A stretch of DNA of 64,000 nucleotides from Pirellulales bacterium (GCA_040880125.1 JBBDJB010000052.1:188281-252280); one strand, 5' to 3'. Shown: positions 19,841 through 58,089, counted from the stretch's first letter. Program-made: numbers and translations. The notes: generated from the sequence alone by a model not told the origin.

Positions 19841-19871
19841 GGCTTCGCGTTAATTCGGAACGATACGACCG

Positions 19872-41044: not shown

Positions 41045-44000
41045 TTACGCCGCGTCTTCTTTCTGCTGGGAGAGATGGGCCGTCCGCAGCGACTGCTGCT
41101 CCAAGACCCGGGCCAGCGGCTCCACCGAGCGAATGTGGATGTCGCGCTGCGGAAACGAGATCTCGATGCCCGCGTCGCGGAATTCGTCGTGAATCCGCGT
41201 GTGCAGCGAATCGACCAGTTCCGGCCAGACATCGCGGTTGGGAAGGAACACGCGCAGCTCGAACTCCAGCGAGTGGTCGCCGAAGCCCTTGCAGATGGCC
41301 GTGGGCGCCGGGTCATCGAGCACGTGTGGGCATTGCTCGGCGGCTTGCATTAAGAGTTCGCGGGCCCGAGCCATGTTCGACCCATAGGCGATTCCCACCG
41401 GAATGATCACCCGCGTCACGGGGTCCGACAGCGTCCAGTTGATCAGCTTCGAGGTGACGAACTCCTTGTTCGGCACGATCAGCTCGCGGCGGTCCCAGTC
41501 GAGAATCGTCGTGGCGCGGATGCGGATCCGCATCACCTTGCCTTGCACGTCGCCCACGTTGACGATGTCGCCCACGCGGATCGGTCGCTCCAACAGTATG
41601 ATCAGACCGCAGACGAAATTGGCGAAGATCTCCTGCAAACCAAATCCCAGCCCGAGCGACATTGCCGCCACCAGCCACTGCACGGTCGACCAGCCGATCC
41701 CTATCTGATTGAAGGCGAGCACCACGCCCAACAGGATAAGCAGATAGCGCGAAACGCTGGAGACGGCATAGCGTCCGCCGGCGTCCAGCGGCAGGCGAGG
41801 CAGCACGGTCATTTCCAACAGGCCGGGGATATCGCGCGTGGCGATGGCGGCCACCGCGGCAATTCCCAAAGCCAACAGCACGTTCTGCAGTGTGATCGCG
41901 TCGCCCGCTTCCGTGGTTCCGAGCGAATAGCCTTCAAGAAACCGCAGCGCGGGCAGCACGTCGATCCAGATCGCCCAGGCGGCCACACCGCCGGCCAAGA
42001 GAATGAAGCTTCGCAGGATGTGCCGCGTCTGTGAACTGACCGCGGTCAGATCCGTCTGCGGGATTTCCACCGGGGTGCCCGCTTCATCTACGCCGGCGGC
42101 CTCGTTCCCGGCATTGGCTTGCAGTGCCGCCCGGCGCTGTTGCGCCTGCTCGCGGGCCAGACGCCGCTTGACAATCACCAGCTTGCGGACAAGCAGCGAA
42201 TATAGCACCAACAGCCCCAGCCCGACGCACACCATCGCGAACAGCCGCCACGTCAGTTGAAGCGAGGTGTAGTAGTAGCCTTCGACTGCCATGACGGCGA
42301 GCACGACCGGCAGCGCTACCGATGTGGGAAACCACACGTAGCGCAGGCGATACATCGCGCCTTGCCGATTACGAGCCAGCGCCTCTTGCAGCACGCCGCC
42401 GACCGGCCGCAACGTACGGTACAGCACGACAGAACACGCCAGCATGCCCGCGACGTAAGTAAACCTTCCGAGCGACGTGCTCAGCCCGTCGTGACTCAGG
42501 GCCCGCAGCGTCGAGACCACCAGCACTGCCGGCAGCGCAATCCGCATCAACCAACCGAGTTGGTTCCGCATCAGCCGCACGCTCCGCCCGGACCAGTCGA
42601 AGTGCGCTTCGGCCAGTCCGGCCGGTCGGCAGATCTGCCGCAGGCTGTCCAGCACCAAGCACACCAGCGCTGCCGTCCACAGCCCAGAAGCGAGTGCCAC
42701 GGGCAGCTCGGATGCTTCACCCGCGGTGCCAATGCGGCTGCTGAGCAGCATCAGCACCAGCGGCCAAAGCACGGCCATGGCCGCCGTGATCGCTAGCGCG
42801 ACCAGCGTAGGGCGGAAGCGATTGGCCTGACTGTCGGAGGCCTCCTCTCCGATGTCCGCAATCCGGCGGCGAAAATTCAGCTTCAGCACGAGCGCCCCGA
42901 GGCACAGCAGGGCGATCGCCACGCCCCAAACAATCGCCGCCGTGCTGTTGTCCCCCATCGGCTGCACGAGTTCGGTCCAAGCCATCGGCCCGAGCACTTC
43001 GGTGCTGGCATTCCAAGCCGTGGCTACGTCGGCGGCGCCAAGCCGCGGCGCGCTGCGGGTCCACAGCACGTGCTCGTCGATGAACGTGGCGAAGGTCTCA
43101 GTCTCACGGGTGAGCTCTCGCTCGCGTGTATCCAGTTCGAGGAGCTTGCGGAAATAGTTGCGGTAATCGCCCAACAGCGCGGCATAGTATTGGTGCCGGG
43201 CGTCGAGCAGATCTTCGAGCATCGGCTCGAGCAGGCACTCGTCGACGTTCTCCGCGGCATCGGCCAACTGCGCGATCTCCTCGCGGAGCGCTTTCTCCGT
43301 TGCGGGAAACCGAAGCTGTTCATCTTCCAGCTCGTACGAGTCCAAGCGAACCTGGGCGATCGTCTCGGCCCGCTCGCGCAAGCGGCGATTGTGCATGCGC
43401 AGTTCCGGCAGGTCGTCGCGCTGCCTGTGCAGAAAGGATCCGATGGTGTCGTTCAGCCCGGTGCGGGCCAGCCGCTCCTGGATGCGGCGAAAGTCTTCCT
43501 GCAGCGCCTGGAGCCGCTGACCCGTCTCCTCGGTTTGCACCGTCACTTGTTCGATCTGCGCGAGCAGCGCAGTTCGCCGCTTGGCCAGCTCCGCGTTGTC
43601 GCGGGCCAGCGACTTGAGCGCCGGATGCGCATCAGCCACGTTGCGGCGGGCTTCCTGCGCCTGGCGCGCCGCCTCGCTCGTGCGGCGCCGCTCGACCGCA
43701 TCACGCAGCGTTTTCACATGCGCTTCGGCCTGTTGACGTGCTCGAACGGCGAGGTCCCGCTTCAACGGCATGAGCTCGGCTTCGGCGTCGTACCGCTGCA
43801 GTTCCTTCTCGCGGGCGCGGATTTCGTTTTGCAGGTTGGACTTGCGGGCCGACAGCAGCGCCCGATTTGCTTGCGCCAGCTCCGCATCGCTGGGCGGCAG
43901 GCCCGAGATCTGCTTATCGAGTTCCTCGGCGCGCTTCTTCAAGTCGGCGAGCTGGCGCGGAGCTTCGATCCGGCGCTGGTCCCGCTGTTTCATCTCCGAC

Positions 44001-44545
44001 TCGAGTTCGCCGGCGGTGGCCTTCTCCTTGGTGAGCGCCACTTCCCTTTCCAACAGTTGCGCTTCCAACTCGTCGAGCGTCGCCGCGTCGTTCCACGTGA
44101 CCGTGGAACTCTTGGGCTGTTCGACTTGTTGTTTTTTGCTCTGCAGGCTTGCCGGCGCCTCTTGGATGGCGGCCTCGTGTCGCGAGACTTCCTGCTCCCA
44201 GCGGGCCGCCGAATCGAGATCCTCAATGATCTTGCGATACGCCTCCAGCAGCTTGGCCTTCGCCTCGGCTTCGATGCCGGTGGCGTCCTCCACCCGCTGG
44301 ATCTGTTGCCGGATCGACTCGACCGTGAGCACCAGGCGGACTTCGTCGGGTTGCTGCTGAGTGTCGGTGCCGGGCTGCGCGTCGTCCTGTGCCGCCGCCG
44401 GCGCGCCGCATCGGCAGACGATCAGTCCGATCGAGACTGCCAAGACAGTCGACAAGGCGCCCCGAGACAGCGCGCGCGAAAGGTTCCGCGGACGAACAGG
44501 AGAATCAGCCACGATCGCATCCATGCTGGCGTGAAGAACAGTCAT
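41045..44545 (-). CDS. MscK/KefA-like mechanosensitive channel with long N-terminal coiled-coil periplasmic domain and C-terminal MscS domain
   Basis: About 500-aa coiled-coil, about 11 TM, C-terminal MscS core (...GDIVNVGDVQGKVMRIRIRATTILDWDRRELIVPNKEFV...). Start trimmed to MTVLHASM. Confidence 0.85.
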   Translation of the reverse strand: MTVLHASMDAIVADSPVRPRNLSRALSRGALSTVLAVSIGLIVCRCGAPAAAQDDAQPGTDTQQQPDEVRLVLTVESIRQQIQRVEDATGIEAEAKAKLLEAYRKIIEDLDSAARWEQEVSRHEAAIQEAPASLQSKKQQVEQPKSSTVTWNDAATLDELEAQLLEREVALTKEKATAGELESEMKQRDQRRIEAPRQLADLKKRAEELDKQISGLPPSDAELAQANRALLSARKSNLQNEIRAREKELQRYDAEAELMPLKRDLAVRARQQAEAHVKTLRDAVERRRTSEAARQAQEARRNVADAHPALKSLARDNAELAKRRTALLAQIEQVTVQTEETGQRLQALQEDFRRIQERLARTGLNDTIGSFLHRQRDDLPELRMHNRRLRERAETIAQVRLDSYELEDEQLRFPATEKALREEIAQLADAAENVDECLLEPMLEDLLDARHQYYAALLGDYRNYFRKLLELDTRERELTRETETFATFIDEHVLWTRSAPRLGAADVATAWNASTEVLGPMAWTELVQPMGDNSTAAIVWGVAIALLCLGALVLKLNFRRRIADIGEEASDSQANRFRPTLVALAITAAMAVLWPLVLMLLSSRIGTAGEASELPVALASGLWTAALVCLVLDSLRQICRPAGLAEAHFDWSGRSVRLMRNQLGWLMRIALPAVLVVSTLRALSHDGLSTSLGRFTYVAGMLACSVVLYRTLRPVGGVLQEALARNRQGAMYRLRYVWFPTSVALPVVLAVMAVEGYYYTSLQLTWRLFAMVCVGLGLLVLYSLLVRKLVIVKRRLAREQAQQRRAALQANAGNEAAGVDEAGTPVEIPQTDLTAVSSQTRHILRSFILLAGGVAAWAIWIDVLPALRFLEGYSLGTTEAGDAITLQNVLLALGIAAVAAIATRDIPGLLEMTVLPRLPLDAGGRYAVSSVSRYLLILLGVVLAFNQIGIGWSTVQWLVAAMSLGLGFGLQEIFANFVCGLIILLERPIRVGDIVNVGDVQGKVMRIRIRATTILDWDRRELIVPNKEFVTSKLINWTLSDPVTRVIIPVGIAYGSNMARARELLMQAAEQCPHVLDDPAPTAICKGFGDHSLEFELRVFLPNRDVWPELVDSLHTRIHDEFRDAGIEISFPQRDIHIRSVEPLARVLEQQSLRTAHLSQQKEDAA

Positions 44546-44829
44546 AGCCCCCGCTTCCTTGCGTGGCTGGCGGCTGGCAGCCGTGGAAGTTTTCAACGGG
44601 CTGCAAGTGCCACCTCGAAGGTGATAAGGCCGCTGGCGCATAGTGTCAATACGGGTCTGCGGCGGCCGGGATTCGCGGGCTCGCATTGGCGCATTCGATC
44701 GGAGCATTACCGGCCATCCGTGGGGCGTTTTCGCCAATGGCACGCATTTGCTAGGATAGCGCAATTGGCAAACGCGCGGCATGCTGGCATGCACGCGGCA
44801 ACCTTTCGCTTCTGGATTAGCAGAGAACG

Positions 44830-45276
44830 ATGCCGGCGGTATTCGACAACCAGGGCGTGCGATTTCAGTATCCGGAGAACTGGACGCTGGAGTGGCAGGA
44901 GAGCGACACGACCGATCCTAGCGTGTCGGTGTTCAGTCCCGGCGGCGCGTTCTGGACGCTGTCAATTCATCCGCCGGGGACCGAGACGGCGCGGCTCGTT
45001 CAGGTGGTGTTGGACGCCCTGCGCGAGGAGTACCAGGAGCTGGACGCGCAGGAGGCGGTCGACTCGATTGGCGACACGGAGATGATCGGCTACGACGTGA
45101 ATTTCTACTGCCTGGACCTGTGCAACACCGCGGTGGTGCGGGGCTTTCACACCCGTCGGGCCAGCTATGTGCTGCTCTGCCAGGCGGAAGACCGCGAGTT
45201 TGAGCGCGTGCGGGAGGTTTTTCGCGCCATGACCACCAGCTTGATTCGCGAAGGCCCGGACGGCGCTGTGGCGTAA
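44830..45276 (+). CDS. Hypothetical protein (148 aa)
   Basis: ATG start, protein-like composition, no recognised domain. Confidence 0.45.
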   Translation: MPAVFDNQGVRFQYPENWTLEWQESDTTDPSVSVFSPGGAFWTLSIHPPGTETARLVQVVLDALREEYQELDAQEAVDSIGDTEMIGYDVNFYCLDLCNTAVVRGFHTRRASYVLLCQAEDREFERVREVFRAMTTSLIREGPDGAVA

Positions 45277-45809: not shown

Positions 45810-48800
45810 CTACTGAGCCGTGCTCTCGTAGATCGGCAGATGCCGGTAGTAGACTTCCAGCGAGAGCAGGTTCAGCGCCGTCACGTACAGCCGCCCGCCT
45901 TGCGGCCCCCACTTGTCGGCCACTGGCGAGAGCGGGTTCCAGCTTCCCGCGAAGTAGCCGCTGGGCGTCTGCGTGTCGACCAGCATCGGATGCAGCCGTT
46001 CGTTCCACGACTCCCAATACTCGCCGCCCATGTGGAACATCACCTGCGTGGCGTAGTACCAGTAATAGGTGTCGCGCATCGGGTTGTCGACCGTGCCGAC
46101 CAGGGCCTGGTTCTCCGGGGTGCCGATGCGGGGCAGGTTGTCCAGCAGATGATCCGCACCCAAGCGGATTTCCGCGTCCTCGCGATTGCTGCCTGCATAC
46201 AACCGCATCAACAAGCCCACTGAGGTCATTGCGGTGCTGGGTGTGCGTCCGTGTCGCTGCGCGGGCGTATCCGCTGCCCAGGGATTGTAGAGGTACAGAT
46301 GCCGCTGATCGCCCGTGCCGCGGCAGCGATCCAGAAAAGCGATGGCCCGGTCGAGAGTTTCCTGCGGGACGTCCAGCCCCGCCAACTCGCCGCTCTTTAG
46401 CGCCATCCACTGCCAGCCGGTGACCGACAGGTCGGACATGTAGCCCGGCGTGTACCGCCATCCGCCGCGCTCCGGGTGCTGTGACTCCACGATGAAGTCG
46501 ATCGCCCGTTGCGCCGGCTCGCGAAGCATCGGGTCGCCGGTCATTCCCACCGCCTCGCACAAGGCAATGGACGCGATGCCGTGACTGTAAAGCTGCGCGA
46601 CATAGTTCGATGCGACTTCCTGCGGGATGTACAAGCCGCCGTCCGCTTGCTGGCTCCGCACCAGGTAGTTGAGGCCGTCTTGCACGACCTGCTGGTAGCG
46701 GTCGTCGAAGTGATCGTAACCGGCGCCGAGGAACGCCAGCAGAGCCATCCCCGTAGCGGCCGAGTCGGCGTGAATGGCGGCCTGTTCGTCCTGATAGCCG
46801 GGCGGGTTATTGCGATCGAGTTGGAAGGACCAGCGGCCGTCGGGAAGTTGATGCCGGGCCAGGTACTCCAGTCCCAGTTCGATGGCCGCTTCCGTCCGAG
46901 CGGTCGGTTTCCCTTCTCCGCCGCTTTGAAGCTCTTCCTGTCGCTGCCCGCGGCGGGCGAACGCTTCGGCAACCACTTCCGCCTGGCCGCTGATCGTCGC
47001 TTGGCCGCCGACCTTCCGCTGTAGGAAGCGCCCCGGCGCGGTGTGCACGACCTGGCTCTCCCGCTGGGCCCGGCGCGGATTGCCCACATCGATGCTCACG
47101 GCCTGTTGCAGCCCGCCCGGACCTTCCTCCGCCTGAACGCGAACCGGCAGGTTGCCGCTGGCACGAGCGAGCGCGTCTCCGCCGGTGGCACTTTGGGCCG
47201 CGCCGCCTTCGTTGTCACTTCCCGGCGACGCATCGGCAAGTTGCACCGGCTCGTCCGGCAGTGCCGCGCCGCCGGGCAGGGCGGCCGTCGTGCTGCGCTT
47301 CAGCGGTGCGCCTTCACTCCCGGAAGCGACCACGGCCGCATCCCGCGCGGAATCGTTGCGTGCGGCCTGCGTGCTGGCCAGTCCCGCGCCGGCTGCAATC
47401 GCCGCCGGCGAATCGAGCGGCACATCGCCTGCCAGGGCGCCGATCTCGCCTGGCGTGCGCGTTGAGGGAACGCCGCTGGGAGTGCGCGCGGCGGTGGCAC
47501 CCTCAGCGACGAGCGGATCGCCCGCCGCGGCGGCGCGGCCTTCCGGCGCTCCCGAGTCAACCGGCGCCGCCGCCGCGCTGGCCAATGTTGCGCCCGTGTG
47601 TGGGCGGCTGGGAGCAGCCGCGGATTGTGCAACCGGAGGCGCGCCCGATTCTGAACCGTCTGATGTGCGGCGGCGCAATTCCGGCTGGACCAGATCCGAC
47701 GGGCTAGGCTGATCGGGATCGGCCGCCTGGGCGGAACCGTCACCGGCCGGAGCGACTGCCGCGGCACGCGCGGGGCTCTCGACCGATCCGCCGCCGGCGA
47801 CGAGCGCACTTTCTTGGGCAGGATCGTCTTCCCGCGCGACGGGGGCAGCGGGCACGGCGGCCACGTTCTCCGCGTCGAGCGATGCGAGCGGAGCACTGCC
47901 GGCGGCGCTGCGCCGCGGCTCGCGCGGCTGCTGGGCGGAAAGCGCTACCTCCGGCTGGCCGCCACCAGACGCCCGACCGATTCCGATCTCCGGCACTACT
48001 TGTGGCGCCCCGGTATCGATCTGCCCTTCGCCCGCGGCGGCCGTTTGGTCTCCGCGCGGCGCCTCCGCGTCACGGCGCTGGACCGCCGCACTGGACGTGG
48101 CGCTGAGCGTGCTGGGGCGCTGCGAGCCGATGGCGGTCGCCTGTTGGACGTCTTGGGCCAGCCGTGTCGCCTCGGGCATTTCCGCCCCGGCGCGCGACTT
48201 GGCCAGGCGCGCCGGCGCGCTGGGTGCTTCGGCTTGGCCTTCGCGTTGCTGCACGGCGCTGTCCCGATTGGCCGCCGAGGACGCCACGGTCGCGGATTGC
48301 CGCGAGTCGGCCGGCAATTGTTCGTCCAGGTTCTCGGATCGGCCACGGCCGACGACCCCCTGGTTGGCTCGGCTCAGCGCCGCCCGGGCAGGCTGGGCAG
48401 TCGCCGAAGGTCGACTCGACGCCTGGGCCAGCGAAGGGCTTTCCACGGCGTCGGGAGACGCCGCTACCGCTGCCTCGCGCGGCGCCCGGCGAGGCGTCTC
48501 GGCGGCGATGGAACTGGTGTCAACTGTCGGCTGATCCGGGCGATCGCTCCGTCGAGGAACTTCCGCGTTGCTCTGCGCGGTGGCAGCCGCAATTGGTTGC
48601 GGCTCGGGCGAGTCGCTCGATGGAGCTTGCGGCGCTTCGGTCGACTGCCGGGCAACTTGCGTGGCTTGCGGCGAAGCGTCCTCGTTTGCCGGCGACGTCT
48701 CTGCGACCGCTTGCGACGGTGTTTCAACTTGCGTCGGTGAGACATCCGCCGCGGCGGTGCTCCGCGCCGGGCTGGTCGATGGCGTCACCTCCGGCTGCGG

Positions 48801-49943
48801 GTTGTCCGATTCGCGCCGGGCCACCTGCACCTGCGACGGGATAACCTCCGACGGAGCACGGTCAACCGGTATGAATGCGGCCGACTCCGCCGGCGTGGGG
48901 CTGGGTACCTCGCGCGCCGTCTGGGCCAGCCGCGTCGACTGCGCGTCGAGCGGCCGCTCGGGTGAGCGTTGGCGCGGACGGCCATCGCGCACCTGGGCCG
49001 TCTCGGCACGCGGCATCTCGGCCGGATCGGCGATCCGGCGCGGGAGTGTCGTCATCGAGGGCGAGTCTACCGTCGTCTGTTCGCCGCGCGTGCGCTGTGA
49101 GAGCAACACTTGCTCCGCCTCGCGGGGAGTCTGCGGCTCAGCGACGGTCGCCTGCGGCGGCACACGGGAAGCTGGTGCCTCGCGGGCCAATTGCGTGGGA
49201 GTCGCGTCGACGCTCGGCTCCTGCGGCGCGGCCGGCTGCTCGGGATTTGGCACCGCGACCGTGGGACGGCTGCGGTCCAACTCCGCCTGCACCGGCTGCT
49301 TGCTCAACTGCGATGCGTTGTCCGCACGATGCGGCGCGGAAAGCTCCGTGCGCGCGAGTTCCACCGGGCTAGGTTGTTCGGTGGTCTCGGTAGTCGGTGT
49401 CGGCACCGGTTGACGCAGTGTTTCGGTCTCTTTGGGCGTCTCCTGCTCGCGCGTCACTTCGGCCGTCTGCGGCTGGGGTACCTGGCTGGGGACCGGTTGT
49501 TGAAACGGCTCGACTTGCTCCGGCCGGTCGATCGGCGGCGCGAAGTACTCCGGCAGCGGGATCGGCTCGTCCTCGGGTACCGCTACCGACTGGTCCTGCG
49601 CCTGTTCGGCCAAAAGCTGCAGGTACTGCGAGTGCAGCACGACCGCCAGGAAAAGGTGGCCAATCAAGCTGATCAGCACCGCCAATTGCAGGCGCCGGGC
49701 AACGCGGCGGCCCCAGCGCGTCGAGGCCCAGAACAGCACGGCCAGCGTGAGCGTGAAAGTCGCCAGGCGAACCCAGCCGTTGTGCAGCAGCCGCGGATCG
49801 TCGAACCCGCCCGCCGCCACGATGATCCCGCCCACGAACCCGGCGAGGATGAACAGCGCCAGATTGATCGGCCACGACTGCTCCTCGAAAGGCAGCCGTG
49901 CGGCCGGCTCGATCTTGCGGATCACCTGGCGGAGCTTAGCCAT
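45810..49943 (-). CDS. Giant membrane-anchored protein with TonB-like topology: N-terminal TM helices, Pro/Ala/Glu/Gln-rich low-complexity spacer of about 800 aa, and C-terminal prenyltransferase/squalene-cyclase-like alpha/alpha-toroid domain
   Basis: N-terminal TM helices (LALFILAGFVGGIIVAAGG, LATFTLTLAVLFWAS, LAVLISLIGHLFLAVVLH). PxP/AxP-rich repeats. C-terminal 400 aa with QADGG..., GGWRY..., LLAFLGAGY toroid-repeat signatures. 6 bp after the exbD stop. Confidence 0.75.
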   Translation of the reverse strand: MAKLRQVIRKIEPAARLPFEEQSWPINLALFILAGFVGGIIVAAGGFDDPRLLHNGWVRLATFTLTLAVLFWASTRWGRRVARRLQLAVLISLIGHLFLAVVLHSQYLQLLAEQAQDQSVAVPEDEPIPLPEYFAPPIDRPEQVEPFQQPVPSQVPQPQTAEVTREQETPKETETLRQPVPTPTTETTEQPSPVELARTELSAPHRADNASQLSKQPVQAELDRSRPTVAVPNPEQPAAPQEPSVDATPTQLAREAPASRVPPQATVAEPQTPREAEQVLLSQRTRGEQTTVDSPSMTTLPRRIADPAEMPRAETAQVRDGRPRQRSPERPLDAQSTRLAQTAREVPSPTPAESAAFIPVDRAPSEVIPSQVQVARRESDNPQPEVTPSTSPARSTAAADVSPTQVETPSQAVAETSPANEDASPQATQVARQSTEAPQAPSSDSPEPQPIAAATAQSNAEVPRRSDRPDQPTVDTSSIAAETPRRAPREAAVAASPDAVESPSLAQASSRPSATAQPARAALSRANQGVVGRGRSENLDEQLPADSRQSATVASSAANRDSAVQQREGQAEAPSAPARLAKSRAGAEMPEATRLAQDVQQATAIGSQRPSTLSATSSAAVQRRDAEAPRGDQTAAAGEGQIDTGAPQVVPEIGIGRASGGGQPEVALSAQQPREPRRSAAGSAPLASLDAENVAAVPAAPVAREDDPAQESALVAGGGSVESPARAAAVAPAGDGSAQAADPDQPSPSDLVQPELRRRTSDGSESGAPPVAQSAAAPSRPHTGATLASAAAAPVDSGAPEGRAAAAGDPLVAEGATAARTPSGVPSTRTPGEIGALAGDVPLDSPAAIAAGAGLASTQAARNDSARDAAVVASGSEGAPLKRSTTAALPGGAALPDEPVQLADASPGSDNEGGAAQSATGGDALARASGNLPVRVQAEEGPGGLQQAVSIDVGNPRRAQRESQVVHTAPGRFLQRKVGGQATISGQAEVVAEAFARRGQRQEELQSGGEGKPTARTEAAIELGLEYLARHQLPDGRWSFQLDRNNPPGYQDEQAAIHADSAATGMALLAFLGAGYDHFDDRYQQVVQDGLNYLVRSQQADGGLYIPQEVASNYVAQLYSHGIASIALCEAVGMTGDPMLREPAQRAIDFIVESQHPERGGWRYTPGYMSDLSVTGWQWMALKSGELAGLDVPQETLDRAIAFLDRCRGTGDQRHLYLYNPWAADTPAQRHGRTPSTAMTSVGLLMRLYAGSNREDAEIRLGADHLLDNLPRIGTPENQALVGTVDNPMRDTYYWYYATQVMFHMGGEYWESWNERLHPMLVDTQTPSGYFAGSWNPLSPVADKWGPQGGRLYVTALNLLSLEVYYRHLPIYESTAQ

Positions 49944-49949
49944 CGCACC

Positions 49950-50357
49950 CTACTCCGTTGCCAGGCTGTAATCGCGGATACCTGCCCGATTGCACAGGTT
50001 CATCACCGTCGCGATGTGCTTGGTCCGCGAATTGCCGTCGGCGCGAATGATCACCCGCTGCCGGCCCGGATTGTTCATCCAGGCCTGCTTCAGGGCCGTT
50101 TCCAGCCCGGCCTCGGTGAGCAGTTCGCCGGAGACAAAGTAGCGCCCATTCTCGGTAACGTTGACAAACAGTTCCTTGGGCTGGGCGATCAGTGGCTTGG
50201 CCTCGCTCGCCTGCGGCAGCACAATGTCTAGCTCCCGCTCCTCTTCTTCAAACCGCGTGGCGACAAGAAAGAAGATCAGCAGCAAGAACACCACGTCGAT
50301 CAGCGGCGTTAAGCTGAGCGATCCCAGTGCCATTCCCTTATCGATCTTGACGGCCAT
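49950..50357 (-). CDS. exbD: Biopolymer transport protein ExbD/TolR
   Basis: SLTPLIDVVFLLLIFFLV TM...VIIRADGNSRTKHIATVMNLCNRAGI. 135 aa. Confidence 0.88.
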   Translation of the reverse strand: MAVKIDKGMALGSLSLTPLIDVVFLLLIFFLVATRFEEEERELDIVLPQASEAKPLIAQPKELFVNVTENGRYFVSGELLTEAGLETALKQAWMNNPGRQRVIIRADGNSRTKHIATVMNLCNRAGIRDYSLATE

Positions 50358-50378
50358 CGGCTCTGGTCCCTAGTGGTA

Positions 50379-51392
50379 CTACTTCGGCGCCGGCGCGGTG
50401 GAATGTGCGGCCTCATCCTGCTCGACAGGCGCCGGCGCGCCGTCGCCGCTCAGTTCCTGCCGCGTCACTCGGAGCTTGCCTTCGAAGCGCTCCAGTTGCG
50501 GCAGCAGGCTGAAAATCATGTCGTCGATTTCGCGGATCAGCGTCTGAATGCGACCTTCGAAATAGTGGGCCATCACGGCGGCGGGAATTGCCACCGCCAA
50601 GCCGGCGAAGGTGGTAACAAGTGCCACGTAAATGCCCTCGGCCAGCGCTTCGGCCTTGTTGGCCCCCACCGGCAGGTTGGCCGTGGCGAAGAAGGCCTGG
50701 ATCATCCCCCACACCGTTCCCAACAGCCCCAGCAGCGGGCAAACGGCAGCGGCCAGGTTCAGCGTGCGCACGTTCGAATACAGCCGCGTTGCCTCGCGTT
50801 CGCTGGCGTCCGTTACGGTGCGCTCGACTTCCGAGTGCGGCCGCCCGACCTTCAGCAGCATCGCGCGTATGATCGATGACGTGGTCGAGGGGTGTTGCTG
50901 ACAAATGCGATAGGCGCGGCGAGGATCGAAGCCGCCGCGGCTTTGTGACATCGTCGACAGGCTTTCGACCAGTTCGCCGGGAATCACCCGCTGCCGTCGC
51001 AGCGAGATCCAGCGCTCGATGCTCAGCGCGAGCACGAGAATCGAAATCACGCCGATTGGCACCATCAACCATCCGCCGCGGACGATCAACTCCAACAGAT
51101 TGACCGCAGGCTCGTCGCCGACCGGCACCGGCGCCGGCTCGGCCGCTTCTTCCTCCGCTTCTTCCGTTGCGGCGAGCGCCTCGGCGGCCCGTTGCTCGGC
51201 CAGGTCTTCTTCTTGCTGGGCCGCATCCTGGTCGGGTGGATCGGACTCTTGAGCAAAAGCCTGATTGGCTGTCACCCCCAGCAATAGCATGGCTGCCAAC
51301 AGGACCGCCGCCGCGACGGATCGCCGGCGCTTCGCGCAACCGGGCGGTACTCCGGCCCCGGACTGAAACGTTGGATCGACCTGTTCACGCAT
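50379..51392 (-). CDS. exbB: MotA/TolQ/ExbB proton-channel protein with long acidic periplasmic N-terminal region; start trimmed to MREQVDP
   Basis: Signal/TM, Glu/Ala-rich segment, then ExbB core ...LGLLGTVWGMIQAF...ALVTTFAGLAVAIPA.... Confidence 0.88.
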   Translation of the reverse strand: MREQVDPTFQSGAGVPPGCAKRRRSVAAAVLLAAMLLLGVTANQAFAQESDPPDQDAAQQEEDLAEQRAAEALAATEEAEEEAAEPAPVPVGDEPAVNLLELIVRGGWLMVPIGVISILVLALSIERWISLRRQRVIPGELVESLSTMSQSRGGFDPRRAYRICQQHPSTTSSIIRAMLLKVGRPHSEVERTVTDASEREATRLYSNVRTLNLAAAVCPLLGLLGTVWGMIQAFFATANLPVGANKAEALAEGIYVALVTTFAGLAVAIPAAVMAHYFEGRIQTLIREIDDMIFSLLPQLERFEGKLRVTRQELSGDGAPAPVEQDEAAHSTAPAPK

Positions 51393-51668
51393 CAAGATGT
51401 TCTCCCCAGCGGACTGCAAAAGCTGCACACCACCGGTTGTTGATATCCGGCTCGATCGGCACCACCAGTGAGCAGTATTTCTGCGCATCTACAGAACGCT
51501 CTATCCTACCGTCGAGCCACCTGGCACAGAAGGGACCGCAGCCCGGTCAGCGCTCCGCCGAGTCGCCGCCGCTTGGGCGAGGTCTTCTCCAGGAACTACG
51601 CAGACTTGGCGATTTACGTGCGAACAACCGCCACGTCTGCAGACGAGACCGATGACCACGGCCACCGG

Positions 51669-54600
51669 CTAACCCCCCAGTGCGGCTACTTTCTGCTTCG
51701 CGGCGGGGAGTTTGTCACTGTTTGGGAATCGCTCGATGAGTTCAGCGAACAGCCGCTTGGCCGCGTCGGGCCGATTTAGCAGTTCCAGGCAGCGGGCCGC
51801 CTCGAACGTCGCGTCCGACTGCCACTGGTGATAAGACTCCGGCGAGTCGGGGTACCCATATCCATAGACTACCTTGAAATACGCCCGCACGGCGTCCTGG
51901 TAGTCCTTGTTCGCGAACATCAGCTCGCCCGCCATGAACTGAGCGCGAGCGCCAAGTTCAAACTGATTTGTGTCGGCGACTTTCTGGTAGAGATCGAGCG
52001 CTCGCTCGTGCTGTTCCAGGTTCTGCCTTGCCCAGGCTTGCTCATAGAGAACTTCATCGCGGTAGTCGGAGTCGGGTAGCTCCTGCGTCGAACGCTCCAG
52101 CAGTTCCAGGCTTTGCTCCCACTGCTTCATTTGCGCCGCCGCCTGACCGGCGTGCAGCAGCGCCAGACCGCGCAGTTGATCGCTGGACAGATTGCCCTCG
52201 AGCGCCGCAGTGAATCCGGCCAACGCTTCTTCGTGCATGCCCTGCTGGAACTGCGACTCGGCCAGCATGAGCCGGGCGTCCGCGGCGAGATTCGCGTCGG
52301 GATACTCGCCCAGCTGCTGCCGAAAGGCCTCCGCCGCCTGTTGGTACTGCTTCTGCTGGAAGTGGGACCAGGCGAGCTTGTGCAGCGCCCTTTCTTCCAC
52401 GGGCGAAGCCGCGGCCTTCTCGACGGCGATGCGATAGTTCTCCGCCGCCTGCTCGTACTCTTTAGCATCGTAGCGGATCTCGCCGACCCGGAACGCACAC
52501 TCGGCCGCCAGCGGACTGTCGCCGTGCTGTTCAACCAGTCGGGCAAAGACGGTCGCCGCCTCGGCCGCCCGGTTCAACTCCACGTGGCACCAACCCAATT
52601 CATACAGCACCTTGTCGAGCGCCTCGTACTCCGGCTGATCGGAGACGATCGTCGAAAACGTGCTGGCTGCCTTGTCGTACTGCTCCAAGCCAGACTCGCA
52701 CAGCCCGCGCACGTACAGCGCGTCGAACCGCGCCTTGTCCCGCGGCTCGGTTGACAAGTACGCCTGAATGTCTTCCAGAGCGCCGGTGAAATCCTTCGTC
52801 TGCTGGCGAGCGACCGCACGAGCGTATCGGCCGCGTGGGATCAGTTCGTGCTGCGGATACTTCTCGATCAAGTCGCTCAGTGTGCCGGCGGCGTCGCCAG
52901 GATGATCGGTGTTGATCTGCGCCCAGCCGAGCCCCAACAGCGCGTAAGGTATGAGCGAGCTGTCGGGCCATGTGTCTCGCAGGTGCGCGAACGCGCCGGC
53001 GGCCGCAGCAGCATTGCCCGCCGCTTCATGAAACTCGCCCAGCCGGAAATAGGCCTGATCGAGCGTGCCGCTGTTGGGGAATCGCTCGATCAACTGCTCG
53101 GCGGTCGCGATCGCCTCTGGCAGCTTCCCTTGCGCCCGCTGCGTGCGTGCCAAGAGCAACATGGTGCGGTCCGCGCCGCCGCCCATCGGCTGTGCGGAGA
53201 GCGACGCCTGTAGCGACTCACCAGCCGCATCGAACTGATCAAGATCGAACTGGCTGCTGCCCAGCACCAGCAGGGCCTCTGCCCGGGCAGAGGCGTCTTC
53301 GATCTGCTCAACGGCGCCACTCAGCACTTCGACGACCTCCGCATGTTTGCCGGCAAGCTGCAGCGCCACGGCCTGCCGCACCCGCCAGGCGTCGATCTCC
53401 GACCGCATGTTGAACTGCTCGATCAGCCGGGCATATTGGTCGGCCGCCTGCTGGTGATTGCCAAGCTGCAGATTGCTCTCGGCGGCCACTTGCAGCACGT
53501 CCGGCGTAAACTCGCTCTGCTGGCGGTTTGACAGAAACGACTTGGCAAGCTCCAGCGCCCGATCGTACTGGCCGATCTGCAGCGCCGCGAAGCTGGCCAT
53601 GTAGGCGGCTTCACCGGCCAGTGAATGTTCGGGAAACTGCTCCGCGAGTGCCTGGTACGCCGCGATCGAGTCGCCACGACGGGCCGGCGTCTCGTACAGC
53701 GCGTCAGCCTTGTCGAGCATCAGCGGCACGCGAAGCGGGCTTTCGCCGGCTTCGACCAGAGCAGCTTCGGCCGCCTGCAGCGCTTCGGCCGGTTGACTCT
53801 GCTTGAGGTAACTCCGCGCGATCCAGTGGGCCGCGTCCAATGCGGATTCGCCGCCCTGAGAGCCGGCCCGCTGGAGCCATTGCCGCGCCTGGTCGAAGTT
53901 GCCAGCCATGAAGTGGCTCTTGCCGGCCGCCAATGTCGCGGCCCCGGCGTACGTCGACTGCGGGAATTGCTCGAGAAGCGACGCATACAGCGCCGCGGCC
54001 TCGGCAAACTGCTGCAGGTCGTACAGGCACTGGGCCTGGCGCAAGGTTGCATAGTCGGCCAGCTCGAAGGCGGGCGTATTCGCCGCGGCGGCGAAGTGCT
54101 GTTGCGCCTCGGCCGGCTTGCCGGCGGATAGCAGCACGTCGCCCTGCCGCATGGACACTTCCGTCGCCAGCGGGTCCTGCGGAAACTCGCTGGCAAACCG
54201 CGTGTACACCTGGCCCGCGGCCGCCGTGTTGCCGGTCTCTTGCAGCGCCACCCCCAGACCGTAGATCGCCTTGGCGCGCAGCTCGTGCTGAGGGTGAGCC
54301 TGGACCCACTGCCGGTACGCTTCCACCGCCTGGGCCTTCTCTCCGAGCGAGTACAGCGCCTCGGCCCGATAGAACCGTGCTACGGGCAGTTGTTCGTCTT
54401 CGGGGAACTTTTCCGCCATCGCGGCGAACGTGTCCACGCTACGCCGCAACGCCTCGGCCTGGCCCTGGTTGAACTGTGCCAGCCCCAGGTTGACGTAGCT
54501 GGACGGCGTCAGCTCCGATTGCGGATAATCGCGAATCGCTTGCTGAAAGGTCTGTTCGGCCTGCTGATATTTCTGCTGTTGAAACTGGCAAACGCCCTGG

Positions 54601-54836
54601 TAGTGCCGGGCCTTGTCGGCCAGCGGCTCTTGGGCGAAGCGATCGAGGAAAGTCTTCCACTCCTCTTCGGCCAGCTCGTACAGCCCCTGGTTCTGCAGTG
54701 CCACGGCGGCGCGATACTGGCGGACAGCCGCCGGCGACGATTCGGCGGCCTCTTGCGCGAGCCCCGCTGAGGCCAGCAGCAAGGCCAATAGCCATGCGGC
54801 ACCGCACGCCAGGAGAACCGAGAAGGTGCGATGCAT
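51669..54836 (-). CDS. Secreted tetratricopeptide-repeat protein (about 1055 aa, more than 20 TPRs); start trimmed to MHRTFSV
   Basis: Signal peptide MHRTFSVLLACGAAWLLALLLASAGLAQE. Repeated A..Y..G......Y..A...F TPR pattern throughout. Confidence 0.8.
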   Translation of the reverse strand: MHRTFSVLLACGAAWLLALLLASAGLAQEAAESSPAAVRQYRAAVALQNQGLYELAEEEWKTFLDRFAQEPLADKARHYQGVCQFQQQKYQQAEQTFQQAIRDYPQSELTPSSYVNLGLAQFNQGQAEALRRSVDTFAAMAEKFPEDEQLPVARFYRAEALYSLGEKAQAVEAYRQWVQAHPQHELRAKAIYGLGVALQETGNTAAAGQVYTRFASEFPQDPLATEVSMRQGDVLLSAGKPAEAQQHFAAAANTPAFELADYATLRQAQCLYDLQQFAEAAALYASLLEQFPQSTYAGAATLAAGKSHFMAGNFDQARQWLQRAGSQGGESALDAAHWIARSYLKQSQPAEALQAAEAALVEAGESPLRVPLMLDKADALYETPARRGDSIAAYQALAEQFPEHSLAGEAAYMASFAALQIGQYDRALELAKSFLSNRQQSEFTPDVLQVAAESNLQLGNHQQAADQYARLIEQFNMRSEIDAWRVRQAVALQLAGKHAEVVEVLSGAVEQIEDASARAEALLVLGSSQFDLDQFDAAGESLQASLSAQPMGGGADRTMLLLARTQRAQGKLPEAIATAEQLIERFPNSGTLDQAYFRLGEFHEAAGNAAAAAGAFAHLRDTWPDSSLIPYALLGLGWAQINTDHPGDAAGTLSDLIEKYPQHELIPRGRYARAVARQQTKDFTGALEDIQAYLSTEPRDKARFDALYVRGLCESGLEQYDKAASTFSTIVSDQPEYEALDKVLYELGWCHVELNRAAEAATVFARLVEQHGDSPLAAECAFRVGEIRYDAKEYEQAAENYRIAVEKAAASPVEERALHKLAWSHFQQKQYQQAAEAFRQQLGEYPDANLAADARLMLAESQFQQGMHEEALAGFTAALEGNLSSDQLRGLALLHAGQAAAQMKQWEQSLELLERSTQELPDSDYRDEVLYEQAWARQNLEQHERALDLYQKVADTNQFELGARAQFMAGELMFANKDYQDAVRAYFKVVYGYGYPDSPESYHQWQSDATFEAARCLELLNRPDAAKRLFAELIERFPNSDKLPAAKQKVAALGG

Positions 54837-55208
54837 CGTATGACCGCTCCTGGTAAGGATAATTCGACTACTTTTCAATACGCGGTGGATGAGTTTTTCA
54901 ATACGCCTGGATGAGTTGCGGCGGGTGCCACGGCTCGCTTTGCCCAGCCGTGCTCTGGCGGCCCTCGACGTGCCAAACATCTACTACAACTTTATACGCA
55001 CGCGGCCCCGGCTCGTGGCGGCAAGACCGCCGATGATCGCCGGAACTCCGCTCAATCTACTGCCGTCGATAGCCCCAGACAACCTGCCTGTCCCGTCGAG
55101 GGTGGCAGTTGTCCACCTCTGGTGAAAGCCGTATCATGACGCCACCTGGAATCGGCGAATTTGCGCCGGTGAATCGCAGTTTCGAACCTCCGATCAAACA
55201 GACGCGCC

Positions 55209-56473: not shown

Positions 56474-57451
56474 GTGAAACAGATTCTCATCACCGGCGGC
56501 GCCGGATTCATCGGCAGTCATCTGGCCGACACCCTGTTGGCGCGGGGACATCGCGTCACGGTGGTCGACAACGAGTCGGCCGGATCGCCGGATAACCTTC
56601 AAGCGGCCGGTCGACATTTCGACTTCCAGTACGTCCGCGGCGCCGTCGAAGACCGGCCGCTGATGCGTGAGCTGCTGGCCGATGTCGACGAGGTCTATCA
56701 CTTGGCCGCGCCCGAAGGCGTCGAGCGGCTGGCCCGGCTGCCGGCCAGGGTGATTCAAAAACAATGGCGGGCGCTGGACGGGTTGGTGTCGGAGATGGCC
56801 CGCCGCCACAAGTCGGGCCCCCCCGTGAAGTGGTTCTTCGCCAGCAGCGGGGATGTCTACGGCTGCCGCTCCAGCGATTCATTCTCGGAGGACGAGCCGC
56901 TCAGCTTCGGGCCGGTTTCGGACGTCGGTCAGGCGGCCGGCGCGTCCAAGGCGCTGGGCGAGTTTCTCGCCCTGGCGGCACAGCGGCAGCATGGCCTGCC
57001 GGTGATTATCGGCAGGCTCTTTAACGTGGCCGGCCCACGCCAGTCGGCCCGCTGGGGCAAGGTCGTGCCGCGCCTGGTGAGCTGCGCACTGGAGGGTCGC
57101 GCGCCGGTCGTGCACGACGACGGCGGCCAGACGCGGGCGTTTCTGCACGTGGCCGACGCTTGCGAGGCGATCGCCGATCTGATGGAGAACGGCACCGTGA
57201 CAGGCAATGTCTTCAACATCGGCGGCGAACGGCCCATCAGTATTTTTCAACTGGCCGAACGAGTCGTCGCCGCCGTCGACGCGAAGCTGGACATCGAGTT
57301 TGAAAGCTACCGCAACACGTACGGCGAAGGTTTTGCCGCAGTCCGCCATCGCATGGCCGATCTGACCCGGCTCAAGCAGACGATTCATTTCGCGCCGCAA
57401 CACGACCTCGACGTGATTGTGACGGAAGTCATCGAGTGGCTGCGGGCATAG
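56474..57451 (+). CDS. NAD-dependent epimerase/dehydratase (extended SDR, UDP-sugar epimerase-like)
   Basis: ILITGGAGFIGSHLADTLLARGHRVTVVDN... Rossmann motif, 325 aa, GTG start. Confidence 0.88.
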   Translation: MKQILITGGAGFIGSHLADTLLARGHRVTVVDNESAGSPDNLQAAGRHFDFQYVRGAVEDRPLMRELLADVDEVYHLAAPEGVERLARLPARVIQKQWRALDGLVSEMARRHKSGPPVKWFFASSGDVYGCRSSDSFSEDEPLSFGPVSDVGQAAGASKALGEFLALAAQRQHGLPVIIGRLFNVAGPRQSARWGKVVPRLVSCALEGRAPVVHDDGGQTRAFLHVADACEAIADLMENGTVTGNVFNIGGERPISIFQLAERVVAAVDAKLDIEFESYRNTYGEGFAAVRHRMADLTRLKQTIHFAPQHDLDVIVTEVIEWLRA

Positions 57452-57826: not shown

Positions 57827-58089
57827 CAACAGAAACGGGTTCCCCGGTAAGGGGGCGTTCAAAAAAGGGTGGGAAACCACCACGCTCACAAGTTCACGAC
57901 CAAACGAAATGACTCCATACGACGGCGCTTCACCCCACCAAGCGGTGCTTGACGCTCCGTCCGGGTCGCGGTGACAATACATAAGTGGCGGGCCGGCCAA
58001 TCGGGGGCGGCCTCTCTTCACGGCCCGCTGCCAGGAGAAGTTCAATGCTCCGGCTTCACTCGACCGCTCGTTCCGAGCGGCCTATTGCC

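What the first reader, a model, noticed from the sequence alone, without database searches (positions are those of the whole stretch)
45810..54836. ExbB-ExbD operon coupled to a giant TonB-topology protein with a squalene-cyclase/prenyltransferase-like C-terminal domain, plus a 1055-aa TPR protein
Four co-directional minus-strand genes: a secreted TPR protein, then exbB and exbD, then a 1377-aa protein. The gaps are 276 bp, 21 bp and 6 bp. The last protein has the architecture of TonB: an N-terminal membrane anchor followed by a very long Pro/Ala/Glu/Gln-rich rigid spacer of about 800 aa. Its C-terminal domain, however, is an alpha/alpha toroid related to squalene-hopene cyclase and protein prenyltransferase beta subunits, not the TonB C-terminal domain that contacts TonB-box receptors. 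exbBD-tonB-TPR synteny is well known in other phyla. Here the energy-transducing arm seems to have been swapped for a different effector domain and an extremely long linker. Planctomycetes have few classical TonB-dependent receptors but do have unusual envelope uptake structures. This could be an undescribed proton-motive-force-driven envelope machine.
Basis: partly seen in the sequence, partly recalled or inferred. Interest (0 to 1): 0.78.

Follow-up and report, generated by a model that had tools for sequence, protein, structure and literature searches.

The report
TonB-like tether with toroid head
A four-gene operon conserved across the planctomycete order Pirellulales pairs a proton-driven ExbB/ExbD-type membrane motor and a giant TPR protein with a TonB-like membrane-anchored tether that ends in a terpene-cyclase-like ring domain instead of the usual TonB head. 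It looks like an undescribed variant of the machines that carry energy from the inner membrane to the outer envelope.

Summary
Four co-directional minus-strand genes lie at the stated coordinates, with gaps of 276, 21 and 6 bp: a secreted 1055-aa TPR protein, an ExbB/TolQ-like protein, an ExbD/TolR-like protein and a 1377-aa protein.

The adjacency is not chance:
- 53 of 60 related genome loci with enough upstream sequence have ExbD directly upstream.
- 43 of 52 have the full TPR-ExbB-ExbD-toroid order.
- Anchor and toroid occur together in 80 of 81 long representatives.
- Linker length varies from 377 to 1827 aa.

Most likely this is a Ton/Tol-type proton-motive-force transducer with a swapped head. 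Its closest precedent is the vWA-headed transducers described in 2025. The target of the head is unknown. I rate it a new variant of a known kind, interest about 0.68.

The parts
51669..54836 (-). Secreted giant TPR protein (1055 aa from the Met before the signal peptide MHRTFSVLLACGAAWLLALLLASAGLA; the longest ORF extends to 54980). First gene of the operon.
   Evidence: Pfam gives TPR_6 4.9e-75 in 14 stretches. NCBIfam gives tol_pal_ybgF (CpoB-type TPR) 335 bits in 12 stretches, plus BamD/YfiO-like hits. An ortholog lies upstream on the same strand in 50 loci.
50379..51392 (-). ExbB/TolQ-family motor subunit (337 aa; alternative start at 51488). It has a signal-peptide-like N-terminus, an acidic periplasmic extension and a three-helix core.
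   Evidence: Pfam MotA_ExbB 3.3e-27. NCBIfam tolQ 1.3e-17 beats exbB 1e-10. Against PDB sequences, TolQ scores 1.1e-10 over the whole core and ExbB 1.5e-7 over TM2-3 only. A signal-like N-terminal extension is present in 50 of 52 orthologs.
49950..50357 (-). ExbD/TolR-family motor subunit (135 aa) with the conserved membrane Asp (D21 in LTPLIDVVF).
   Evidence: Pfam ExbD 4.5e-27. Alignment to solved ExbD chains 7ajq and 6tyi covers the TPfIDV helix. Position confirmed.
45810..49943 (-). 1377-aa transducer-like protein: three-helix anchor, disordered tether, C-terminal toroid. It starts 6 bp after the exbD stop.
49584..49943 (-). Anchor module (aa 1-120). A basic cytoplasmic N-tail is followed by three membrane helices; the TM1-TM2 loop is FDDPR and the TM2-TM3 loop is Arg-rich.
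   Evidence: Alignment of 48 orthologs. Charge distribution fits N-in, C-out. AF2 predicts helices at 19-44, 56-76 and 79-120, pLDDT about 80-89. A profile search finds 556 cluster representatives, and 80 of the 81 long ones end in the toroid.
49632..49691 (-). Third membrane helix LQLAVLISLIGHLFLAVVLH (aa 85-104) with S92-x3-H96-x6-L103, matching the S-H-L part of the TonB/TolA 'SHLS' motor-docking signature.
   Evidence: His is present in 117 of 119 orthologs. The residue at -4 is Ser in 90 and Cys, Gly or Ala in the rest. The +7 position is not conserved. The role of the SHLS motif is taken from PMC12204202 and PMC10907165.
49542..49562 (-). IPLPEYF (aa 128-134), the window's copy of the family motif vT[VIL]P[DE]Y. 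It is a candidate equivalent of the TonB D-box / TolA motor box that ExbD captures.
   Evidence: The motif occurs in 64 of 119 orthologs at a median of 35 aa after the His, against 6.5% of shuffled controls. D-box position and role are from PMC10907165. Binding to ExbD is not tested.
47139..49583 (-). Low-complexity Ala/Pro/Ser/Arg/Gln/Glu/Thr-rich tether (aa 121-935), without tandem repeats.
   Evidence: Composition; no tandem repeats. The distance from the TM3 His to the toroid is 377-1827 aa in orthologs, median 1030. Most of it does not align between orthologs.
47919..48416 (-). Conserved island of short linear motifs inside the tether (aa about 510-675), for example G.AG.G..NLDR and VD.GP.QVV......GRASGGGQP.
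   Evidence: It aligns in 26 of 48 orthologs. It has no Pfam hit and no hydrophobic core. It is absent from the short orthologs of about 900 aa.
46902..47138 (-). Conserved Gly/Gln/Arg-rich segment just before the toroid (aa 936-1014), predicted disordered.
   Evidence: It aligns in 41-48 of 48 orthologs. The consensus is. pLDDT is below 50 in the AF2 model.
45813..46901 (-). C-terminal (alpha/alpha)6 toroid (aa 1015-1377) of the terpenoid-cyclase / prenyltransferase superfamily, with QxxDGxW-type repeats and invariant motifs LCEA[VY]GMT.D, SD.SVTGW and RDTYYWYYATQ.

Best explanation
This is a Ton/Tol-type trans-envelope force-transduction module with a non-canonical head.

Proposed mechanism:
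1. A pentamer of the ExbB/TolQ-like protein and a dimer of the ExbD/TolR-like protein form a proton-driven motor in the cytoplasmic membrane.
2. The large protein docks on the motor through its third membrane helix, using the conserved Ser-x3-His. Probably the ExbD dimer also captures a short motif just outside the membrane.
3. The long disordered tether crosses the enlarged planctomycete periplasm.
4. The tether lets the motor pull on, or reel in, the C-terminal toroid while the toroid holds a ligand in the outer envelope.
5. The co-transcribed secreted TPR protein acts as a periplasmic scaffold or adaptor, possibly binding the conserved linear motifs of the tether.

The motor is more TolQ/TolR-like than ExbB/ExbD-like, the TPR protein is CpoB-like, and the operon is order-wide. 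I therefore lean to a housekeeping, Tol-like role in envelope maintenance rather than substrate-specific import.

Shown here: gene content, architecture, fold, the conserved motifs and the conserved synteny. Inferred: motor docking, force transmission, the role of the TPR protein and the physiological function. The ligand of the toroid is unknown.
For: Motor genes:
- Pfam MotA_ExbB and ExbD are well above their cut-offs.
- The membrane Asp of ExbD aligns with solved ExbD chains.
- The TolQ-like core aligns end to end with solved TolQ.

Anchor:
- Three helices with charge distribution giving N-in, C-out.
- TM3 His in 117 of 119 orthologs, with Ser or a small residue at -4. This corresponds to the TonB/TolA motor-docking signature (PMC12204202, PMC10907165).
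- A D-box-positioned motif in 64 of 119 orthologs against 6.5% of shuffles.

Architecture of anchor, disordered linker and globular C-terminal domain.

Operon:
- Gaps of 21 and 6 bp in the window. Median gaps of 18 and about 34 bp in orthologs.
- ExbD directly upstream in 53 of 60 loci, and the full four-gene order in 43 of 52. Independent gene calls agree.
- Anchor and toroid are always fused: 80 of 81 long representatives.

Precedent: vWA-headed transducers follow the same grammar of TPR, tolQ-like, tolR-like and transducer genes in the PVC group (PMC12204202).

Tol-like lean:
- tolQ and tolR models outscore the exbB and exbD models.
- TIGR02795 (CpoB-type TPR) scores 335 bits on the TPR protein.

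Published BLAST searches found TonB in only four of the planctomycete genomes examined and not in Rhodopirellula baltica (PMC3422733). Yet Rhodopirellula and Rubripirellula genomes carry this operon (L035, L067, L068, L080).
Against: - No experiment and no complex model supports docking or force transmission.
- The Leu and second Ser of the SHLS motif are not conserved.
- The D-box-like motif is missing by my pattern in 55 of 119 orthologs. It contains a Pro and is not predicted as a strand in the monomer model.
- A floppy linker of 400-1800 aa is a poor force conductor unless it is wound or stretched.
- No outer-membrane partner gene is conserved nearby.
- Seven of 60 loci lack ExbBD next to the toroid gene.
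- All NCBIfam scores for the motor proteins are far below the equivalog cut-offs, so the Tol-versus-Ton lean is weak.
- The strong conservation of polar and aromatic residues in the toroid would also fit an enzyme.
Confidence: 0.6

Rival explanations
1. TonB-like import energiser. The toroid binds an outer-membrane transporter or a polymeric nutrient such as a polysaccharide. Motor-driven pulling opens the transporter or drags the polymer into the enlarged periplasm.
Against: No transporter, sugar-utilisation or regulator gene is conserved next to the operon. There is a single conserved copy with housekeeping-like neighbours, rather than the many receptor-linked copies typical of Ton systems. 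The motor scores closer to TolQ/TolR. At the sequence level the toroid groups with terpenoid cyclases, not glycosidases. Uptake was shown in Planctomycetales and Gemmata, whereas this operon was seen only in Pirellulales-type genomes.
Confidence: 0.2
2. Tethered periplasmic enzyme. The toroid is a catalytic domain, either an isoprenoid/terpenoid-modifying enzyme or a polysaccharide lyase/hydrolase, held near the membrane by a long leash. The motor genes serve another purpose, or only position or regulate it.
For: Identity of 47-67% across an order, with many invariant Asp, Arg, Trp, Tyr and Gln residues, looks like an active site. The closest structures are enzymes.
Against: No DxD/DxDD acid motif is conserved. 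The position aligned to the DAD motif of prenylcyclase 6ij1 reads D-x-S, with the Ser invariant. The Ser-x3-His helix and tight operon coupling with exbBD are conserved, which a plain anchor would not need. Isoprenoid diphosphate substrates are cytoplasmic, by established knowledge.
Confidence: 0.12
3. Passive spacer or envelope ruler. The protein only links the cytoplasmic membrane to peptidoglycan or the outer membrane, and its tether length sets or tolerates periplasm width. No energy is transduced.
For: Tether length varies five-fold between genera. The linker is disordered and the head is conserved.
Against: This does not explain the conserved motor genes directly upstream, the conserved His in TM3 or the D-box-like motif.
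Confidence: 0.05
4. Coincidental adjacency of an unrelated 'terpene cyclase/mutase family' gene and an exbBD pair.
For: None beyond the fact that public records annotate the protein as 'hypothetical' or 'terpene cyclase/mutase family protein'.
Against: The synteny recurs in 53 of 60 loci from different genomes, with short intergenic gaps.
Confidence: 0.02

Closest known systems
vWA-headed TolA/TonB-like force transducers (Williams-Jones et al., Mol Biol Evol 2025, PMC12204202)
   Same: [quoted passage not shown] Function is unknown in both.
   Different: The head is an (alpha/alpha)6 toroid, not a vWA fold. There is one tolR/exbD-like gene instead of two. The anchor has three helices instead of one. 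The linker is 380-1830 aa instead of about 100 aa. The paper's main text does not mention cyclase, prenyl or Pirellula-type examples.
TonB-ExbB-ExbD (Ton system)
   Same: An ExbB/ExbD-family motor is encoded directly upstream. The anchor helix has Ser-x3-His. A short motif lies at the D-box position. A Pro-containing periplasmic spacer is followed by a C-terminal effector domain.
   Different: There is no TonB_C domain, so no known way to bind a Ton box by strand addition. Two extra membrane helices are present. The spacer is disordered Ala/Pro/Ser-rich sequence, not (Glu-Pro)n/(Lys-Pro)n. No TonB-dependent receptor is linked.
TolQ-TolR-TolA with CpoB (Tol-Pal system)
   Same: The motor subunit aligns best with TolQ. 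A secreted TPR protein with CpoB-type repeats lies in the same operon. The operon appears housekeeping-like across the order.
   Different: No TolA C-terminal domain, TolB or Pal is found in the operon or among conserved neighbours. The TPR protein has 1055 aa, about four times the size of CpoB, and comes first in the operon.
Single-domain class II terpene-cyclase-like proteins (PDB 8paj, 6ij1; drimenyl-PP synthase 8zg0) and squalene-hopene cyclase
   Different: The domain is periplasmic, membrane-tethered and fused to a TonB-like anchor. There is no conserved DxD(D) acid motif. It is a single toroid, not the two-domain beta-gamma enzyme.
'Long' ExbB with a signal peptide and periplasmic N-terminal extension (Serratia marcescens ExbB, PMC9008036)
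   Same: The ExbB-like protein here starts with a signal-like segment and an acidic extension before the first core helix. This holds in 50 of 52 orthologs.
   Different: The core is TolQ-sized and TolQ-like. The partner is the toroid protein, not TonB or HasB.

Membership tests
TonB family | C-terminal TonB_C domain (Pfam PF03544 or PF13103) that binds the Ton box by beta-strand addition | tested here: not met
   No TonB_C hit at E<=1. The C-terminus is an all-alpha toroid. The conserved island in the linker is low-complexity sequence.
TonB family | Membrane anchor helix with the SHLS / His motor-docking signature, oriented N-in, C-out | tested here: met
   S92-x3-H96-x6-L103 lies in the third helix. 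His is kept in 117 of 119 orthologs and Ser in 90 of 119. Charge distribution gives N-in, C-out. The Leu and second Ser are not conserved.
TonB family | D-box / motor box captured by the ExbD dimer just after the anchor | tested here: inconclusive
   The vT[VIL]P[DE]Y motif occurs about 35 aa after the His in 64 of 119 orthologs, against 6.5% of shuffles. Its pattern differs from the published D-box and no binding test was possible.
TonB family | Genetic linkage to exbB-exbD | tested here: met
   The gap to exbD is 6 bp in the window. ExbD lies directly upstream in 53 of 60 loci.
TolA / Tol-Pal system | TolA C-terminal domain, with TolB and Pal encoded alongside TolQRA | tested here: not met
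   Pfam and NCBIfam give no TolA hit. No further gene is conserved on the operon strand except a small TPR gene in some loci.
ExbB/TolQ/MotA and ExbD/TolR motor proteins | MotA_ExbB and ExbD Pfam domains above the gathering score, plus the membrane Asp in ExbD/TolR | tested here: met
   Scores are 95.2 bits (cut-off 22.9) and 95.1 bits (cut-off 25.4). D21 aligns with the Asp of solved ExbD. The core aligns with TolQ.
Class II terpene cyclases (squalene-hopene cyclase type) | Catalytic DxDD (or DxD) general-acid motif | tested here: not met
   The invariant columns of 27 orthologs contain no DxD pair. The segment aligned to the DAD motif of 6ij1 reads D-L-S, with the Ser invariant. That alignment is weak at 9.9 bits.
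Class II terpene cyclases (squalene-hopene cyclase type) | (alpha/alpha)6 toroid with QW-type repeats | tested here: met
Protein prenyltransferase beta subunits | Zn-binding Asp/Cys/His triad and an alpha-subunit partner | not tested
Alpha-2-macroglobulin / complement thioester domain | CGEQ thioester motif | tested here: not met
vWA-headed force transducers (PMC12204202) | C-terminal von Willebrand factor A domain | tested here: not met
   There is no VWA Pfam hit and the fold is a toroid. The operon grammar and anchor signature are shared.
Zorya and other anti-phage systems with MotAB-like motors | ZorA/ZorB plus effector genes | tested here: not met
   PADLOC gives only a generic ZorA match at E 9e-4 on the ExbB-like protein and nothing on the other three.

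The most novel reading that the evidence does not exclude
The toroid head is a carrier or grapple for a non-protein envelope molecule, either an isoprenoid lipid such as squalene or a hopanoid, or a glycan chain. The TolQR/ExbBD-type motor reels the very long tether in and out to move that cargo across the enlarged planctomycete periplasm. This would be a proton-motive-force-driven 'fishing line' for lipid or polymer transport between membranes, a function not known for any Ton/Tol-type system.
Probability: 0.12. Interest if true: 0.88.

Novelty: new variant of a known kind. Interest (0 to 1): 0.68.

Why it matters
Ton and Tol systems are the textbook way for diderm bacteria to spend inner-membrane energy at the outer membrane. 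Until 2025 only heads of the TonB/TolA type were known.

This operon adds a second non-canonical head, a terpene-cyclase-like toroid. It is conserved across an environmentally abundant order, and published searches found no canonical TonB in some members of that order. Its tethers reach about 1800 residues. That length bears directly on how force, or reach, is achieved across the unusually wide planctomycete periplasm.

The operon offers a concrete four-gene target for planctomycete genetics, covering envelope integrity, budding and macromolecule uptake. Its point mutants are obvious: ExbD D21, anchor H96 and the invariant residues of the toroid.

It also shows that many genes annotated 'terpene cyclase/mutase family protein' in Planctomycetota are unlikely to be cyclases.

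Tried and rejected
- A word-indexed search with the anchor profile A2 returned only 13 short fragments and no alternative fusions. The exhaustive representative search replaced it.
- A cluster look-up to obtain organism names for divergent members gave only 'hypothetical protein' and one 'Planctomycetes bacterium'. Distribution outside Pirellulales-type genomes stays unknown.
- The afdb50 fold library was unavailable.
- An exact look-up of the window's ExbD found no record, so the source genome was not identified.
- I considered that 'short' toroid proteins of 410-550 aa on long contigs are anchor-less paralogs. I rejected this for the two inspected, P0043 and P0086. Both are pieces of split gene calls within the linker, and both lie downstream of TPR-ExbB-ExbD.
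- I considered a link to squalene synthesis, because hpnCDE-like genes lie 4 kb downstream in L082. I rejected it because this occurs in only 1 of 83 sequences.
- I considered a folded or TonB_C-like domain hidden in the linker. I rejected it because the one conserved island is low-complexity motif sequence.
- Tandem repeats in the linker: none found.
- The promoter and terminator scan found nothing above the shuffled background.
- Rfam and tRNA scans of the window found nothing.
- PADLOC gave no defence system.
- Six literature searches found no paper that links a toroid or 'squalene oxidase repeat' protein with ExbBD/TolQR.
Full report
**Observation**

The four minus-strand ORFs exist as described.
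- The 1377-aa ORF is 45810..49943.
- A 135-aa ORF at 49950..50357 matches Pfam ExbD (4.5e-27).
- An ORF at 50379..51488 matches MotA_ExbB (3.3e-27).
- The TPR ORF at 51669..54980 has 1055 aa from the Met at 54836, which precedes a clear signal peptide.
- The gaps are 276, 21 and 6 bp.

The 1377-aa protein matches SQHop_cyclase_C above the gathering score (1.3e-7). It matches nothing resembling TonB_C even at E<=1. NCBIfam gives squalene/oxidosqualene cyclase and pectate lyase models far below their cut-offs.

**Anatomy of the large protein**

*Anchor.* The N-terminus has three hydrophobic helices, not one.
- An alignment of 48 full-length orthologs shows a basic N-tail, TM1, a conserved FDDPR loop, TM2, an Arg-rich loop and TM3.
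- In the window the N-tail and the TM2-TM3 loop each carry five Lys/Arg residues, while the TM1-TM2 loop is acidic. By the positive-inside rule this puts the N-terminus in the cytoplasm and everything after TM3 in the periplasm.
- AlphaFold2 on the anchor alignment predicts helices at 19-44, 56-76 and 79-120, with pLDDT of about 80-89.

*TM3 signature.* TM3 reads LQLAVLISLIGHLFLAVVLH, with S92, H96 and L103 spaced like S16, H20 and L27 of E. coli TonB (that numbering is from my own knowledge). Across 119 orthologs where the helix could be located, the His is present in 117. The -4 position is Ser in 90 and Cys, Gly or Ala in the rest. The +7 position is not conserved. The SHLS motif and its His are the residues by which TonB and TolA bind their motors (PMC12204202; PMC10907165).

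*D-box-like motif.* About 35 residues after the His, 64 of 119 orthologs carry a motif vT[VIL]P[DE]Y, which is IPLPEYF in the window. Only 6.5% of shuffled controls carry it. TonB has its D-box at this position and TolA its motor box, and a dimer of ExbD captures that element (PMC10907165). Whether this motif does the same is untested.

*Linker.*
- Residues 126-935 are Ala 20%, Pro 13%, Ser 10%, Arg 8%, Gln 8%, Glu 7.5% and Thr 7%, with no tandem repeats.
- The distance from the TM3 His to the toroid varies from 377 to 1827 aa among orthologs, median 1030. Open frames run from 827 to 2282 aa. The window protein is therefore of typical size for its family.
- Most of the linker does not align between orthologs. 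An island at aa about 510-675 aligns in 26 of 48, and the roughly 80 residues before the toroid align in nearly all.
- The island is a series of short motifs in low-complexity sequence, without a hydrophobic core. It is not a hidden TonB_C domain.

*Toroid.*
- AlphaFold2 with a 27-sequence alignment gives mean pLDDT 79, and the domain itself is mostly above 90. The fold is all-alpha.
- Sequence similarity to solved structures is limited to the QxxDGxW-type repeats of squalene-hopene cyclase (E 3e-4).
- The invariant columns of the ortholog alignment contain no DxD pair. The segment that aligns, weakly, with the DAD acid motif of 6ij1 reads D-L-S, with the Ser invariant. A proton-donating class II cyclase is therefore unlikely.
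- The thioester motif CGEQ is also absent. The conserved Cys lies in LCEA[VY]GM.
- The domain is 47-67% identical across 80 genomes, with many invariant Trp, Tyr, Asp, Arg and Gln residues. It probably recognises a specific ligand.

**Motor and TPR genes**

- The ExbD-like protein aligns with solved ExbD chains through the TP[FL]IDV helix, so its Asp (D21) is in place.
- The ExbB-like core aligns end to end with solved TolQ (E 1.1e-10). It aligns with ExbB over TM2-3 only (1.5e-7).
- NCBIfam likewise ranks tolQ and tolR above exbB and exbD, all far below their cut-offs.
- The protein begins with a signal-like segment and an acidic extension, as do 50 of 52 orthologs. This recalls the 'long' ExbB of Serratia (PMC9008036, seen).
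- The TPR protein is secreted. It has at least 14 TPR_6-type repeats, and NCBIfam sees them as twelve CpoB/YbgF-like stretches.

**Is the adjacency real?**

A scan of one genome per species (185,579 genomes) with conserved peptides of the toroid found at least 590 relatives. The best 80 were all from Planctomycetota, apart from one unclassified MAG (L031). Every locus named to family or genus belongs to Pirellulales: Blastopirellula, Bremerella, Rubripirellula, Rhodopirellula, Allorhodopirellula, Anatilimnocola, Lacipirellulaceae and Thermoguttaceae.

tblastn with the window's proteins gave these results:
- Of 60 loci with at least 1.5 kb upstream of the gene's 5' end, 53 have ExbD directly upstream on the same strand.
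- Of 52 loci with at least 5.5 kb upstream, 43 show TPR, ExbB, ExbD and the toroid gene in that order.
- Median gaps are 18 bp between ExbB and ExbD, and about 34 bp between ExbD and the anchor.

Third-party gene calls with precomputed Pfam hits show the same order in two further contigs. They also show that 'short' toroid proteins are split gene calls inside the linker.

Seven loci lack ExbBD. In one of them, L009, the TPR gene directly precedes the toroid gene.

Clustering all ORFs of the loci found no other gene conserved on the operon strand, apart from a small TPR gene downstream in 15-17 loci. No outer-membrane barrel or lipoprotein was conserved.

An exhaustive profile search with the anchor found 556 cluster representatives. 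Of the 81 listed that have at least 780 aa, 80 end in the toroid. Anchor and toroid thus form one family, not a mix-and-match module.

**Interpretation**

The shown facts are:
- a PMF-motor gene pair;
- a C-out anchor helix with the motor-docking His;
- a motif at the D-box position;
- a long periplasmic tether;
- a conserved globular head;
- tight, order-wide operon linkage;
- a co-transcribed periplasmic TPR protein.

The simplest reading is a Ton/Tol-type force transducer whose head has been replaced. [quoted passage not shown] That paper's main text does not mention cyclase-like heads or Pirellula-type organisms.

Speth et al. 2012 found TonB by BLAST in only four planctomycete genomes, and not in Rhodopirellula baltica. 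Rhodopirellula- and Rubripirellula-type genomes nevertheless carry this operon. These exbBD genes are therefore not there to serve a canonical TonB.

I lean towards a Tol-like housekeeping role, for three reasons: the motor is TolQ/TolR-like, the TPR protein is CpoB-like, and the operon is order-wide with housekeeping-like neighbours. This lean is weak. An import role, an enzyme on a leash and a passive spacer remain possible, and the ligand of the toroid is unknown.

The tether is more likely disordered than rigid. If force is transmitted, it would have to be by winding or stretching.

**Novelty**

Six full-text searches found no paper that connects a toroid or 'squalene oxidase repeat' protein with ExbBD or TolQR. 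A 2025 review of the phylum mentions neither TonB nor ExbB. Public records call the protein 'hypothetical' or 'terpene cyclase/mutase family protein'. A head swap on a TonB/TolA-like transducer already has a precedent, so I rate this a new variant of a known kind, not a categorically new system.

**Limits**

- No complex modelling, no coordinates for mapping conserved residues and no whole genomes were available.
- Only the best 80 genome hits could be inspected, so the distribution outside Pirellulales is unknown.
- None of the 30 larger ORFs of the window scanned with Pfam carries a TonB_C or TonB-dependent receptor domain. The rest of the source genome could not be checked.

Noticed in passing
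window 47919-48416 (-), aa about 510-675 of the 1377-aa protein; also 46902-47138 (aa 936-1014): The otherwise unalignable linker holds a conserved island of short linear motifs (G.AG.G..NLDR; AS.SA.R....TQ; VD.GP.QVV......GRASGGGQP). It is shared by 26 of 48 orthologs and missing from the short orthologs of about 900 aa. A related Gly/Arg-rich conserved segment lies just before the toroid. These could be docking peptides, perhaps for the TPR protein.
   Followed up: partly
window 44830-45276 (+): A 148-aa ORF convergent with the 3' end of the toroid gene has no Pfam hit and no signal peptide. It is conserved at 27-82% identity next to the toroid gene in 19 related loci, so it is probably a real gene that travels with the operon.
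   Followed up: partly
L016 12542-13537 (+), L082 11527-12213 (+) and about 15 other loci; not in the window: A second, small TPR gene (about 230-330 aa) follows the toroid gene on the same strand in 15-17 loci. It is absent from this window, where an MscK-like channel gene follows instead.
   Followed up: partly
L009 5512-11302: In this genome the giant TPR gene is followed directly by the toroid gene, with no exbB or exbD between them. Six other loci (L028, L047, L049, L051, L059, L060) have the toroid gene without TPR or exbBD nearby. I could not tell whether these are second copies or rearrangements.
   Followed up: partly
L082 13179-17525: lytB/ispH and three squalene-synthesis-type genes (two SQS_PSY and an amine oxidase, hpnCDE-like) lie 3-7 kb downstream of the cyclase-like toroid gene. 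This occurs in only 1 of 83 sequences, so I treated it as coincidence.
   Followed up: yes
window 41045-44794 (-): A 1249-aa MscK-type mechanosensitive channel (MscS_TM, MscS_porin and MS_channel domains) lies downstream of the operon on the same strand, after a 1-kb gap. It is not conserved at this position in related loci.
   Followed up: yes
window 56474-57451 (+): An NAD-dependent epimerase/dehydratase gene lies divergent from the TPR gene. It occupies the same relative position in 23 related loci, which suggests conserved local gene order in the order.
   Followed up: partly
window 18950-19840 (-), inside the low-GC stretch 18001-20000 (GC 0.57 against about 0.64): An HNH endonuclease with three homing-endonuclease-associated repeats sits in a GC dip, possibly a mobile or foreign insert. 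A second dip at 28001-30000 covers a PhyH-family dioxygenase and the start of a PQQ beta-propeller gene.
   Followed up: no
window 22865-27256 (-): A 1463-aa multidomain protein combines ThuA, DUF7133, HEAT and cytochrome c domains. Giant periplasmic proteins of this type are common in planctomycetes.
   Followed up: no
window 57985-59649 (+): A 554-aa protein carries an N-terminal prepilin-type methylation motif (N_methyl) and has no other Pfam match.
   Followed up: no
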